Origin: Eledone cirrhosa
Taxonomy: Eukaryota
Length of the DNA stretch: 64,000 nt
Direction: 5' to 3'
NCBI GenBank assembly: GCA_964016885.1
Contig: OZ024745.1
Location: forward strand, 8,184,001-8,248,000
In this document: positions 21,215 to 28,008 of the stretch, piece by piece
How positions within the stretch are numbered: the first letter of the stretch is position 1
Layout of the letters: each line of letters opens with the position of its first letter
Program-made: the position numbers and the translations under genes
Notes under the pieces: model-generated
Databases searched by the model: none
Seen by the model: only the letters and a program-made list of their open reading frames with translations
What the model was told of the DNA's origin: nothing

Positions 21215-24200
21215 GTTATCATTCTTTGAGTCTCAGTCATTGATGTTATTTAACTGGAAAGTTTTCTGAAATGAATATCAAGCCACTACCTGCAGCCTCA
21301 GATATTCAGGACGTATCGGAGGGTTCTTGCTGTTACCAGCAAGCATGCCTTTTGAAGTGTTCCAAAAAGCGGGGCTAGACCAACTTTCTTTAACCATTCT
21401 TGGAAACTCATTGAGATAGTACCTAGTGCACCTATGACAATGGCAGTTCCAAATCCTTTTTACCTCCCACTTTAAGTCCTGATATCGGTTAATGTTTCTC
21501 CCTCTCCTTCTCTTGCACTCTCGTGTCGAATGGGCAGGCCACATCCACAATCAGGCACGATCTTTTTTCCTTGTCCAAAACCACCAGGTCAGGTCTATTG
21601 TGTTCCAGTTTCTTGTCCGTCTGTATCCTAAAATCCCACAGCACCTTCACCTGATCGTTTTCTACTCTGGCTTATGCTCATACCACTTCTCAGAATGTGG
21701 TAAATTGTTTACTTTGCATAGGTGCCAGTGGATCACCCTGCCCATCACATCATGTCTCCAGCCCTTAAGGTGAGTCTGGGCTAGGTGTTTACACTCGGAT
21801 ACAATGTGAGCCACAGTCTCCTCTCTCTCTCTCCACAGATCCTGCACAGTGGGCTAGCCTCCTCCTTGTAAATATGGTGTTTCAGCCACTTCGTTTTGAG
21901 GGCCTGCTCTTGCGCAGCCATTAGCATTCTTTCTGTAGCCTTTTTAAGGTCTCCTCTTTTCAACCAGTTCCATGTCTGTGGATCTCTGAATTCAGTTTTT
22001 TCAAAGAAGGTACTATGAAGGGATTTTTCATGAAGGTTGCTATTTCTCCTTGTTGTTATTTCCTCCTTGGACATCCCCTGGTCTATTGTCCTTCCCTTCA
22101 GTACAATTCTGAGCATTGGCTCCCTACTATCAGTCACGCATTTGTGTAGGTTGTTTTTCTCCATCTGAACTCAGTCCTCTATGCTGATAAGACCTCTTCC
22201 ACCTTCAGATCTCCTTAAGTAGAGTCTATCGACATCACTCCTCTTGTGGAACATGTTGTAGATAGTCAATAGCTTCCTAGTCTTCCTATCCATTTCTTTT
22301 TGTTCAGCAGCATTCCATCTCAGAATTCCCGCACTGTACCTAATAATAGACACAGCTCGGGAATTTACTGCACTTATGGCATTCCTACTGTTCAGGTGTG
22401 ACTTTAATACGCTCCTTATTCTCCGAATGTATTCAGATCTTATCAATTCCTTCATTTTTTTGTTCTTTATGTCATCAGCCTCCAGAACACCCAAATACGT
22501 GTATCCTTCTTCAGTGTCAATTTCCTTTATCATCTCACCTGTTGGTACCTGGATTCCGTTGCTTCTGCTCAATTTACCCCTCTTCATCACAAGGACTCCA
22601 CACTTACTAATACCAAATTGCATACATATATCATTGCTGAAAATACGGACAGTGTCAACAAGCACATCCAACTCCTTCTCACTCTTCCCGAAGAGCTTAA
22701 GATCGTCCATGAAGAGGAGGTGATTGATGGTAAGCTCTCCCTTTCCCAACTTGTATCCCGCTCTCACTTTTCGCAGTATAATGGTCAGGGGCACCAGGGC
22801 AAGGACAAACAACAGAGGGGACAAACTATCTCCCTGGAAGATACCTCTCTTTATCTTCACGCCTCCCAAGGATTCTCCAGCTGATGTTAACTCTGTTTTC
22901 CAGGACTTCATACTTTTGCCCAACAACTGTCTGATGTTATCTGCCACCTTGAAGATCTCTAGGCTTTTGGTGATCCAAGAATGAGGCACCATGTCAAATG
23001 CCTTTTTGTAGTCTATCCATCCCATGGCAAGACCAGTGTGTCTCCTCTTGCAATTCCTCATTACCATCTTATCAATAAGTAACTGGTCCTTTGTACCACG
23101 GGACTTCTTTCGGCATCCTTTCTGTTCGTCCGGTAACAAGTTGTTTGTGTGGAGGTGATGGTAGATTTCCTCAGACATAATGCTTGTCAACAGTTTCCAC
23201 ATTACGGACAGACATGTGATAGGTCTATAGTTGGTAACATCATTACCCTTGATTCGGTCTTTCATTACCAGAACTGTGGTACCTTTTGTCAACCACTCTG
23301 GTACCTCACCTGACATCAAGCAGTCATTGAACATGGTTGTCAGTTTCGGGTGGAGGGATGTTATATTTTTAATCCAATACCCCTGCACACCATCTGGGCC
23401 TGGTGATTTCCAGTTGGTTAGATTTTTGGCCTGCCCCTTAAGAGTTTCAACTGTGATACTCAAATCAGTTTGTTGGTGTGCCTGTTCACTAATCTCCTTT
23501 TGTACTGTCTCAATCCACACTGCCTGGTCATTATGTTTAACATCCTGCTCCCATATTCCTCTCCAGAATGTCTTAGTTTGTTCCGCCTCAAGGATCAAGT
23601 CGTTGCCTCTTTCTTTCCCTTCAAGCTGTCCAAACAGCATCTTCTGGTTGTTGTAAAACATGCGGTTCTGTCTATACTGACTGACTCTGCTCTCGAATCG
23701 CCTAATTTTTGCACTCTTTGCTACAATGCATTGCTTCAGTTCCTCTATGATAATATTTAGCTTTTTCCTCTTAGTTTTGTACTTTATTTCCAGTCTATTT
23801 TTAGTGTCTATGTTTTTTAGTGTCCCATTCAGTAGGGACTCAAGCTTTCCAATGTCATTTCTCATTTCCCTGATTTGACCATTCAGTCGTTTCTTCCACC
23901 AAGGTTCTGATCTTTCTTGTTTGTTGTTTCCTCTCGTTTTTATGCCAAGTAGTTTCCTCACCGCATTTGCTGTTGCTTTGAGGATATTGTTGCACTGGTG
24001 AAGGCTCCTCGCCTCAAGGTATGGGATGACTTTATTTACCTTAGCTGTTGTTTCTTTTAACTTTTTCCTGTCTACAAATCTTAGGTTCATAGGTTTCCCA
24101 CTATCATTGTTCAATTCATCTACCACTAAGTTTAGGATATCGACCAAATCTTGTCCTAGCCCGTCAGCATTCATCTCCTCAATGGTCGTATCTTTGTTCC

Positions 24201-24790
24201 ATGTATTATTTATTTCAGCATTCAGATCATTGTCTGCTTTGGATGGTTCCTCCGTTCTCTCAACCTCTTTACCTTCATTTCCTACTGGCTCGTTTGGCTG
24301 GCATTATCCACTATCCATTTCCAACGTAATCTCTCTGCTCAGTTCCTCCAATTCCAGCTCGCTTATCCACCCATTAGTTCTTATTACCCGAGCCTGCCCG
24401 GCCAATTTTTGTTCATCTAATTTAAATAGACCAATCTCGTTCCAGATGTTATGCATCCGTTTCCTATAGCCTTTCTCCTTGGGGTTACTCTTCAGGTAAC
24501 ATTGCATAACAGTTCTATTCAATTCTTTCGTCCAGTTGGTTCTGGTCCCTTTCCTTCTTCTTCTTCCTCCGACACCAGCAGTATTTGGTTGACAGCCAGG
24601 TCCCTGCTGCTGAGCCAGGGAGCACCTGCTGGTGAGAGTCTGTCACATGACATTCCAGTCTCCACTTTACCGTTATTCGAACTGCTTAGGTTCGACATTT
24701 AAACACTCTTACCGAGGATTGGTGAATGTATTGTTACATAACCACCGATGATTTCATCACCCCCGGTGATTTTAGTGTGGCACTATCACG
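21215..24790 (-). mobile_element. E1: near full-length R4/Dong-like non-LTR retrotransposon (single ORF, RT plus CCHC plus RLE endonuclease)
   Basis: N-terminal domain WTKELNRTVMQCY...GYRKRM...IW...EQKLAGQARVIRTNGW. RT motifs [54 protein letters not shown] knuckle, RHD motif, PD..D endonuclease. About 80-bp 3' UTR, then (TAA)n. The 5' boundary is approximate. Confidence 0.93.
21298..24698 (-). pseudogene. Disrupted RT-RLE polyprotein ORF of E1
   Basis: ORF pieces 24304-24522, 22171-24174 and 21781-22164 share one frame, separated by single stops (TAA 24304-24306, TGA 22171-22173). Relative to E2 there is a +2 slip in a GA run (~21817-21832), a 7-bp deletion (~21664) and a 20-bp deletion (~21440). 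Terminal stop at 21298-21300. The candidate ATG at 24698 is in another frame, so the start is uncertain. Confidence 0.9.
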
Positions 24791-25079
24791 CTGTAGACGA
24801 ACATAAATAAACAAACAAATAGGTAAAAAAAAAAAAAAAAAGAATAAGCATAAGTTTCATTGTAATGTAATGTTTGAATGTCTGACTTAGTTTTTTTTTC
24901 TCCTTCTCTGTCTGTCTGTTTGTTTTTATTTTTATTTTTATTTTCTTTACGTTTTTCGTTGCTGCTGTGCTGTTTTGATTTTGATTTTTGGTTTTTTGAT
25001 TTTTTGACCGGGTCATCAAATCAGTCTATTTATATCTTTTGATGCCTTCCTCTTTTAGTGGGTGTACTACGATGCATGT

Positions 25080-25223
25080 CTTAGCAGGAGGTAGTGGGAG
25101 AGAATAGCGGCGGTAGCGATAATTAGGCAGTGGTGGTGGTGGTGGTGGTGGTGCTGTGCTGGTAGTACTTAGCAGGAGGTAGTGGGAGAGAATAGCGGTG
25201 GTAGCGATAAGGAGGCAGTGGTG
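25080..25223. repeat. Two ~56-bp direct repeats, period 88 bp
   Basis: cttagcaggaggtagtgggagagaatagcgg(c/t)ggtagcgataa(tt/gg)aggcagtggtg at 25080 and 25168. Confidence 0.9.

Positions 25224-26640: not shown

Positions 26641-26700
<60 letters not shown>
26641..26700. repeat. (ATT)20; tail of E3 and 5' flank of E2
   Basis: Perfect repeat between the two elements. Confidence 0.97.
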
Positions 26701-26702
<2 letters not shown>

Positions 26703-28008
26703 AGTTGCATTTATCTTGCTTTATGTTCGTACGAGTTATCACCAAGTCACAACCAGTGACCTCAAGAGACAACAAGGTCCGCCATGTTCAAGAAAGAACA
26801 TACATACTCACACATGCATCTTTAGTGTTTAGACTTGTGATGTACTTATATTGACAGAATCTTCCTTAGTATATGGGCAGTTCCCATTAGTACAATCTTT
26901 TGTATTTCTCCTATACGCGGGTTTCCTGGGATTTGCGATAAGTAATCATTAGACCCCTTAGGTATCATTCCCAGAGCGCCTACAACCACTGGTATTGTTT
27001 TAGTTCTCAATTTCCACATTTTTCCAATTTCTATCTCCAGGTCCTTATACTTGCTCAATTTTTCAAATGTTTTTATAGATACATTCTTGTCTATTGGAAC
27101 AGACATATCAATTAGCAGGCATACCCTCTTTTTAAAGTCCTTCAATATTATATCAGGTCTATTTGCATCTATTTTTCGGTCTGTTTGGATGCTAAAGTTC
27201 CACAAGATTGAGATGTGATCTATTCCTTGCAATCAATTCCGTTCTTAAGATTGCTCCTACTCTGCGGTAACATTCCTTCCTTATCCTTTCCCTCATTGTC
27301 GAGTGCTTGATTCCGTCTCCTTCACAAACACCTAGATATTTGTAAGTTTTTTCTTGATCAAGTTCTCTTATCACGTTCCCCCGATCAAGATTAATGTCTG
27401 AACTCTTCAGCAGCTTTCCTCTGGTGAACGTTGCTTTGGCGCATTTGTCTAGTCCAAACTCCATTTTAATGTCATCACTGAACTGCTCCACAGTGGATAA
27501 TAGCCCTTGCAATTGTTCATCATTTTTTGCAAATAGTTTCAGGTCATCCATGTAGAACAAGTGATTAATGGTTTTGTCATAGACTTTATATCCATGTTTT
27601 GTTTCATTGAGCATTTTACTTAATGGTATAAGTGCGATGCAGAATAAAAGCGGTGATAAAGAATCACCCTGAAAAATTCCACAATTAATATTAACTTCTC
27701 CAGCTTCCAATGATTTTGTTTCACTATTCAAAAGGAGTGTCGTTTTCCATGTCTTCATACTGAATGACAAAAACCTCCCGACAACGGGGAATATTTTGAA
27801 AATCTCTAAACATTTTTCAATCCAACTGTGTGGCAAACTATCGAATGCTTTTTTATAATCTATCCAAGCAATCGATAGATTTTTGTGTCTATTATGACAA
27901 TCTTCCAGTATCATTTTGTTAACCAGAAGCTGATCCTTACAGCCATATGAGCCTCGTTTACACCCTTTCTGCTCAATGGGAAATAGGTCATTTGTTGTCA
28001 GGTGGTCA
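26701..28008 (-). mobile_element. E3: 5'-truncated, internally deleted R4/Dong-like element of a second family
   Basis: [69 protein letters not shown]...LIDMSVP...EKLSKYKDL...PVVVGALG. Stop at 26846-26848, ~145-bp 3' UTR, (ATT)n on both sides. The protein is clearly diverged from E1/E2. Confidence 0.92.
26846..28008 (-). pseudogene. E3 polyprotein remnant; RT fused out of frame to the endonuclease
   Basis: The RT frame (27192-27914, extending upstream) leaves homology after [10 protein letters not shown]. The RLE frame (26846-27232) gains homology at about ISILWNF. Linker and CCHC knuckle are missing. Confidence 0.88.

What the first reader, a model, noticed from the sequence alone, without database searches (positions are those of the whole stretch)
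21272..26772. 3' stem-loop conserved with compensatory changes across two divergent Dong-like families
Seen (minus strand): E1 (21272-21308) and E2 (25742-25778) are identical for UGAAUAUC-UG-AGGCUGC-AGGUA-GUGGCUU-GAUAUUCA, which spans the stop codon, while the adjacent UTR diverges. E3 has UG-AGGUCAC-UGGUU-GUGACUU-G at 26743-26764, about 80 nt after its stop, in an otherwise unrelated UTR. The 7-bp stem shows C-G to U-A (compensatory), U.G to C-G and G.U to A-U; the loop is WGGUW. It sits about 40-65 nt from the (UAA)n tail in all three. Inference: the cis element bound by the RT-RLE protein for target-primed reverse transcription, shared across families, so cross-mobilisation is possible. 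It could be a minimal template tag for microsatellite-targeted insertion.
Basis: partly seen in the sequence, partly recalled or inferred. Interest (0 to 1): 0.7.

Follow-up and report, generated by a model that had tools for sequence, protein, structure and literature searches.

The report
Conserved 3' hairpins of Dong retrotransposons
Jumping genes of the Dong/R4 type, in this animal genome and in dozens of distantly related families from other samples, end in the same predicted bulged RNA hairpin, usually followed by a second small one, which is likely the tag their own reverse transcriptase grips to copy them into TAA repeats.

Summary
The hairpin is real and far more widespread than reported. 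E1/E2 (family A) and E3 (family B, 35% protein identity) end in an outer stem, an asymmetric internal loop, a 6-bp stem and a 5-nt loop with a central G. It was found in 43 of 52 sequence clusters (50 from outside contigs; one has a variant loop). A model built only from outside sequences ranks E1, E2 and E3 first in the window. Seven pairs covary at E<0.05 under an approximate tree-aware null, two in a stem not used for selection. Searching for it alone found a third family here that carries the first hairpin. Corrections: the loop is NNGNN, not WGGUW, and the E1/E2 identity is uninformative. No non-autonomous partner appeared in 60 sampled copies, and cross-mobilisation is unsupported. Likely role: template-recognition signal for target-primed reverse transcription, as in L2 and R2; untested. 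My searches found no description for R4/Dong. The scan noted the first hairpin before on other DNA of this genome (e1-9521820).

The parts
21156..21223 (-). (UAA)n tail / TAA target of E1
21232..21257 (-). E1 second hairpin P2 (5-6 bp with a single bulged base before the last pair)
21272..21308 (-). E1 first hairpin: outer stem P0, internal loop containing the family's stop codon (21298-21300), stem P1, 5-nt loop with central G
21301..24740 (-). E1 (family A) RT-CCHC-RLE reading frame, near full length, broken by stops and frameshifts; the 5' limit is approximate
25643..25693 (-). (UAA)n tail of E2
25702..25727 (-). E2 second hairpin P2
25742..25778 (-). E2 first hairpin P0/P1; stop codon at 25768-25770 forms the internal loop
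25771..26640 (-). E2 (family A), 5'-truncated copy: thumb end, CCHC, RLE, open frame; starts directly after the TAA tail of E3
26641..26701 (-). (UAA)n tail of E3, also the TAA run upstream of E2
26735..26773 (-). E3 first hairpin P0/P1 in the same register as A; first G of P1 is 87 nt after the stop codon (26846-26848); no canonical P2 downstream
26849..28008 (-). E3 (family B), 5'-truncated, with an internal deletion near 27220 that removes thumb to CCHC; RT part and RLE part remain
28009..28051 (-). TAA run upstream of E3 (target side)

Best explanation
This is a 3'-terminal RNA structure, predicted from covariation, shared by most sampled Dong/R4-type non-LTR retrotransposons, and it likely is the signal by which the element's own RT-RLE protein selects and positions its RNA for target-primed reverse transcription at (TAA)n. 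Shown: an outer stem P0 closed by a C-G pair, a 3x1 internal loop (2-nt bulge when its last base pairs), a 6-bp stem P1 that starts with G, and a 5-nt loop with a central G; then, 13-23 nt later in most families, a second hairpin P2 with a single bulged U/A; then an A-rich spacer and the (UAA)n tail. Inferred: the basic helix before the RT (the likely equivalent of R2 NTE-1) and the thumb bind P0/P1; the fixed distance places the UAA tail in the RT active site, where it pairs with the nicked TAA target; variable loop bases and P2 likely add family specificity.
For: Structure-only selection: 29 of 52 cluster 3' regions have a 5-nt-loop hairpin of -4 kcal/mol or better, against 110 of 1040 shuffles and 1 of 50 coding controls; central G in 25 of 29 against 27 of 110. 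Sequence-anchor selection: 27 of 52 have all five inner pairs, 0.2 expected; one of the 27 is a false hit. P1 96.4% paired; P0, not used for selection, 73.6% paired, against 30-49% for slid structures. The top 7 of 861 column pairs are all in the structure, E<0.05 under an approximate tree-aware null, including P0 pairs 7:33 and 6:34. Held-out recovery in the window and in 7 further outside clusters at E<0.05. P2: 27 of 39 clusters, 0.25 expected, 10 different stem triplets; 22 double changes in 30 rows. A P2-only pattern found family C, and 7 of the 16 distinct loci gave a model hit just upstream of P2. Spacing tracks the tail (41-68 nt, 23 of 39 with a tail), not the stop codon (+9 to -87; two frameshifted copies ignored). 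The first P1 pair is G-C in 27 and G-U in 10 of 37, which fits sense-strand RNA; this column was part of the locator. The Dong profile aligns, at low posterior, across R2Bm residues 299-323, with family-A R338 (39 of 42), N345 (42 of 42) and F348 (40 of 42) conserved. Precedent: PMC10499050 section 8, PMC1636434 sections 3 and 15, PMC4176376 section 13.
Against: No binding, probing or retrotransposition data exist here. P1 and P2 rows were partly chosen by pairing, and the anchors were devised after seeing the sequences, so their pair counts lean towards the structure. The tree null is my approximation, not R-scape. 9 of 50 outside clusters have no match at E<0.05 (two weak at the expected place, at least two cut short or broken, the rest with other 3' ends). 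Family B, with 4652 exact hairpin copies, lacks P2, so P2 is not universal. Single-sequence z-scores are weak. Host taxa of the outside contigs are unknown.
Confidence: 0.72

Rival explanations
1. The structure is a 3'-end formation or RNA-stability element (it would set where transcripts end, or protect them from exonucleases), bound by host factors rather than by the element's protein.
For: Constant distance to the tail fits this equally. How Dong RNAs get their 3' end is not established in the papers read.
Against: Precedent in L2 and R2 ties such 3' structures to the element's protein. The bulged stem plus loop G matches the protein-bound L2 hairpin in layout.
Confidence: 0.15
2. The hairpin acts in translation termination or in coupling translation to cis-preferential RNP assembly, because it often overlaps the stop codon.
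For: The stop codon forms the internal loop in 9 of 39 clusters and overlaps the terminal loop in 5 of 39.
Against: In many others, including B, it lies 11-87 nt downstream of the stop with the same fold; all three stop codons occur.
Confidence: 0.08
3. No selected structure: chance palindromes picked by the analyst, or coding conservation.
For: Weak z-scores; a 19-bit chance hit close to the score of E3; post hoc anchors.
Against: 27 against 0.2 expected; covariation in P0, which was not selected; held-out and prospective recoveries; no hit in 14 arbitrary or window-flanking 10-kb stretches.
Confidence: 0.03

Closest known systems
L2-clade 3' tail stem-loop (eel UnaL2, zebrafish ZfL2-1/ZfL2-2; PMC1636434 abstract and sections 3, 15; PMC4176376 abstract and section 13)
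   Same: Two stems split by a bulge or internal loop, a 5-nt loop in UnaL2 with an important G, close to a short-repeat tail; shown there to be required and bound by the LINE protein.
   Different: APE-type clade; critical G is loop position 2 of GGAUA, here position 3; no second hairpin described in the passages read; loops are family-specific there. No sequence homology was tested.
R2 3' UTR core: R2Bm 43-nt 'R2 tag' (PMC10499050 section 8) and vertebrate R2 pseudoknot-hinge-stem (bioRxiv 10.1101/2024.11.11.623112, passages)
   Same: RLE-type protein, nearest solved relatives of this protein; two structured parts and a linker at the RNA 3' end, bound by NTE-1 and thumb; a minimal tag is enough for TPRT.
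   Different: R2 folds are long-range stems or a pseudoknot and differ between R2 clades; here local hairpins keep one register across proteins of 29-90% identity (median 47%). Target is (TAA)n, not 28S rDNA.
Dong / R4 clade elements (PMC7998251, passages)
   Same: RT plus C-terminal RLE, TAA target.
   Different: The passages read describe the protein and target, not a 3' RNA structure.
General 'bulged 3' stem-loop' of stringent LINEs (PMC5135761, PMC3747384; passages)
   Same: 5-7 nt loop with a bulge 4-6 bp below it.
   Different: Examples named in the passages read are L1, L2 and R1; 'Dong' and 'Rex6' do not occur in the text of PMC5135761 or its 7 readable supplements (3 not readable).

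Membership tests
R4/Dong clade non-LTR retrotransposon | Single long ORF with RT followed by CCHC and PD-(D/E)xK RLE | tested here: met
   Intact ORFs of 1141 and 1216 aa; RVT_1; invariant P-D...D in the RLE alignment; best PDB hits are R2 proteins over RT to RLE
R4/Dong clade non-LTR retrotransposon | (TAA)n target on both sides and tail | tested here: met
   All three window copies have TAA tails, and E2 and E3 start after TAA runs; most truncated copies sampled start after TAA runs
R4/Dong clade non-LTR retrotransposon | N-terminal SANT/Myb-like domain (PMC7998251) | tested here: inconclusive
   Only a non-significant short match to the R2 Myb-region W motif
R4/Dong clade non-LTR retrotransposon | RT phylogeny with named R4, Dong or Rex6 references | not tested
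   No named reference was returned; the clade label rests on architecture, target and recalled knowledge
Stringent-type LINE 3' recognition stem-loop | Conserved bulged hairpin near the 3' repeat with compensatory changes | tested here: met
Stringent-type LINE 3' recognition stem-loop | Required for retrotransposition and bound by the cognate protein | not testable with these tools
   needs TPRT, gel shift or a cell assay
Stringent-type LINE 3' recognition stem-loop | Shared with a partner SINE or non-autonomous family | tested here: inconclusive
   None among 30 B and 30 A copies (of 4652 and 8695 exact matches); a rare partner would be missed
Any Rfam family | Match at the gathering score | tested here: not met
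   2 weak chance matches in 21000-28300, neither on the hairpins

The most novel reading that the evidence does not exclude
A single ancient RNA tag of about 70-90 nt (bulged hairpin with a central-G pentaloop, usually a second bulged hairpin, then UAA repeats) is read by all Dong/R4 proteins through its invariant bases, so divergent families can copy one another's RNA and any cargo bearing the tag could be written into TAA microsatellites.
Probability: 0.2. Interest if true: 0.75.

Novelty: new variant of a known kind. Interest (0 to 1): 0.5.

Why it matters
Template recognition is worked out for R2 and L2 but, as far as my searches reach, not for the R4/Dong clade, which targets microsatellites. 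The covariation gives a base-level model with specific testable positions: the central loop G, the first G-C of P1, the C-G closing P0 and the bulged base of P2. It proposes a minimal template tag like the R2 tag. It is also a marker for finding old or non-autonomous R4-dependent elements, and it did find a third family here. It is not a new kind of mechanism.

Tried and rejected
E1/E2 identity as evidence: rejected. WGGUW loop consensus: rejected. Folding z-scores: uninformative. Rfam: no real match. Viral contigs: 36 pattern matches, none confirmed. A distant protein query against the own genome returned what look like family A copies again (15 loci checked), so it did not reveal other families. 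A genome-wide search with the RNA model was not available, so the genome was probed only with four DNA patterns and the model was run on 81 fetched loci; other families and SINE partners may be missed. Non-autonomous partner: none in 60 sampled copies; 23 hairpin-plus-tail B copies have mixed breakpoints. Sequencing runs: no RNA holder listed. The fourth model hit (28234-28275) has no R4 gene upstream and is treated as chance. RNAalifold alone predicts P1 but not P0. Literature: nine... ten searches showed no description of an R4/Dong 3' structure; PMC4400214 (mosquito Dong) is not held; most subscription papers and Repbase notes are not covered, bioRxiv supplements are closed, and three supplements of PMC5135761 were unreadable.
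Full report
Setting. The window lies in a 3.0-Gb animal genome. Between two satellite arrays are three copies of RLE-type non-LTR retrotransposons on the minus strand, each ending in (TAA)n. E1 and E2 belong to one family (A), E3 to another (B). Intact ORFs elsewhere in the genome are 1141 aa (A) and 1216 aa (B), 35% identical. Both families are abundant and young: 8695 and 4652 exact matches to their hairpin patterns. 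The nearest solved structures are R2 proteins. The label Dong/R4 rests on this architecture and the TAA target (PMC7998251, passages); no tree with named references was made.

Observation. The E1/E2 identity carries no weight: 848 of 917 aligned columns are identical, and a longer identical run (77 nt) lies in coding sequence. Folding z-scores of the three 3' ends are only -0.66 to -1.52. Three sequences from two families could not establish the claim, so I collected relatives.

Outside sequences. An alignment of 20 RLE domains fetched 80 metagenome loci (the best 80 of 440 confirmed) and 9 loci from MAG contigs. With E2 and E3 these 91 loci form 52 clusters. Their host organisms are unknown. 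RLE-region identity among the 39 sequences used for the tree is 29-90%, median 47%, and A and B fall on opposite sides of the midpoint root.

First hairpin. Choosing the most stable hairpin with a 5-nt loop, without using sequence, gives one of -4 kcal/mol or better in 29 of 52 clusters, in 110 of 1040 shuffles and in 1 of 50 coding controls. The central loop base is G in 25 of 29, against 27 of 110 in shuffles; other loop positions vary, so WGGUW is too narrow. Conversely, a sequence anchor that ignores the five inner pairs finds all five paired in 27 of 52 clusters, 0.2 expected; one of the 27 is a false hit in a tail. The anchor was devised after I had seen the sequences. I then aligned 37 outside segments from 34 clusters, chosen with a locator that uses P1 pairing; MAFFT gave no gaps. 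RNAalifold predicts the six P1 pairs only. Counting a named structure gives 96.4% pairing in P1 and 73.6% in the outer stem P0, which played no part in selection; slid controls give 30-49%. With A and B added, the seven highest of 861 column pairs (G-test with background correction) are all in the structure and reach E<0.05 under a null that re-places substitutions on the protein tree. Five are in P1, two in P0. The other seven pairs are not significant; two of them are nearly invariant. This null is my approximation of R-scape.

Held-out tests. The model built from the 37 outside sequences ranks E1, E2 and E3 first among 9 matches in the window; the fourth scores 19.0 bits against 21.4 for E3. 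On 34 outside loci not used for training it gives 23 matches; seven further clusters match at E<0.05 downstream of the RLE, one of them with a variant 4-nt loop. In all, 43 of 52 clusters carry the hairpin. Nine do not at that threshold: two match weakly at the expected place, some are cut short or broken, and some have other, longer 3' ends. On 65 own-genome loci (317 kb) all 68 matches have the scores or sequences of A or B hairpins, and none falls in the 14 arbitrary or window-flanking 10-kb stretches.

Second hairpin. 13-23 nt after P1 most families have a short stem opening with CC and closing with G-(U/A)-G, with one bulged base. It has three Watson-Crick inner pairs in 27 of 39 clusters (0.25 expected) in ten different triplets. 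In 30 rows selected for it there are 22 double changes. A has it; B does not. A pattern for this hairpin plus tail gave 30 matches at 16 distinct places in the own genome. Seven of the 16 gave a first-hairpin match just upstream, in an older third family whose copies end in RLE-coding remnants; two more of that family were too decayed or truncated; the rest are another family's remnant or chance.

Position. The end of P1 lies 41-68 nt from the tail in the 23 of 39 clusters with a tail, whereas the stop codon lies anywhere from inside the hairpin to 87 nt upstream. The element is therefore tied to the RNA 3' end rather than to the stop.

Mechanism. Shown: conservation, covariation, spacing. Inferred: function. 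In R2Bm an NTE-1 helix (R307, R310, R311, Y314) binds a two-stem core, and a 43-nt tag suffices for TPRT (PMC10499050 section 8). [quoted passage not shown] In UnaL2 a bulged stem with a GGAUA loop is required (PMC1636434 sections 3 and 15). The Dong profile aligns across the R2Bm NTE-1 helix at low posterior, and that stretch holds conserved basic and aromatic residues. I put template recognition by the element's protein at 0.72, 3'-end processing or stability at 0.15, a translation-linked role at 0.08 and chance at 0.03.

Cross-mobilisation and non-autonomous elements. No evidence. The first 30 B and first 30 A hairpin matches by position all have own-family sequence upstream. Twenty-three places hold little more than the B hairpin and tail, with mixed 5' ends, about 0.5% of B copies, as ordinary truncation would give. 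In the zebrafish L2 pair, stem-loop swaps abolished mobility and the loop carried the specificity (PMC4176376 section 13). The invariant bases here keep a shared recognition mode possible, which is the novel case (0.2).

Novelty. Bulged 3' stem-loops are a known theme of stringent LINEs (PMC5135761 and PMC3747384, passages). Ten literature searches (listings only) and term look-ups in PMC5135761, its 7 readable supplements, PMC5786205 and PMC13580325 showed no description for R4/Dong, and Rfam has no match. Coverage of subscription papers and Repbase is lacking. The scan had noted the first hairpin in four families on another piece of this genome (e1-9521820); that note is not independent support, and it pointed me to the two L2 papers and to looking for more families. 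Verdict: real, a new variant of a known kind, interest 0.5.

Noticed in passing
window 25643-28051; L002, L018, L046, L172, L181: Families A and B form head-to-tail chains on one strand, each copy starting in the TAA tail of the previous one.
   Followed up: partly
window 25570-25645; many loci: Two or three recurring non-Dong repeats follow Dong tails directly; they look like the 3' ends of other retroposons in opposite orientation whose (ATT)n tails serve as target.
   Followed up: no
L275, L277-L279, L283, L285, L293-L295: A third, older Dong-like family (C) in this genome with its own P1 stem, a larger internal loop and the commonest form of P2.
   Followed up: partly
L281, L290: Remnants of a possible fourth family with a canonical P2 and, in L290, RT-region homology upstream; its first hairpin is decayed or absent.
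   Followed up: no
L131:2161-2199, L148:2170-2208, L082, L104, L115: A subgroup of outside elements with long 3' UTRs; two have a variant hairpin with a 4-nt loop about 450 nt after the anchor motif, and L148 ends in a GA repeat instead of TAA.
   Followed up: no
L107, L120, L130, L132, L139; proteins P0067, P0068, P0072, P0075-P0080: In one lineage, including fish proteins, the reading frame runs into the hairpin, so the last residues (for example PGLW) are encoded by P1 and its loop.
   Followed up: partly
window 27220; L171, L195, L199: Internally deleted B copies that keep the 3' end are common (3 of 30 sampled plus E3).
   Followed up: no
window 1-15582 and 33696-63998: Two large satellite arrays with 40-bp and 39-bp units flank the retrotransposon cluster.
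   Followed up: no
L161-L169: Nine Dong-like elements lie in bacterial MAG assemblies, most likely animal-host contamination.
   Followed up: no
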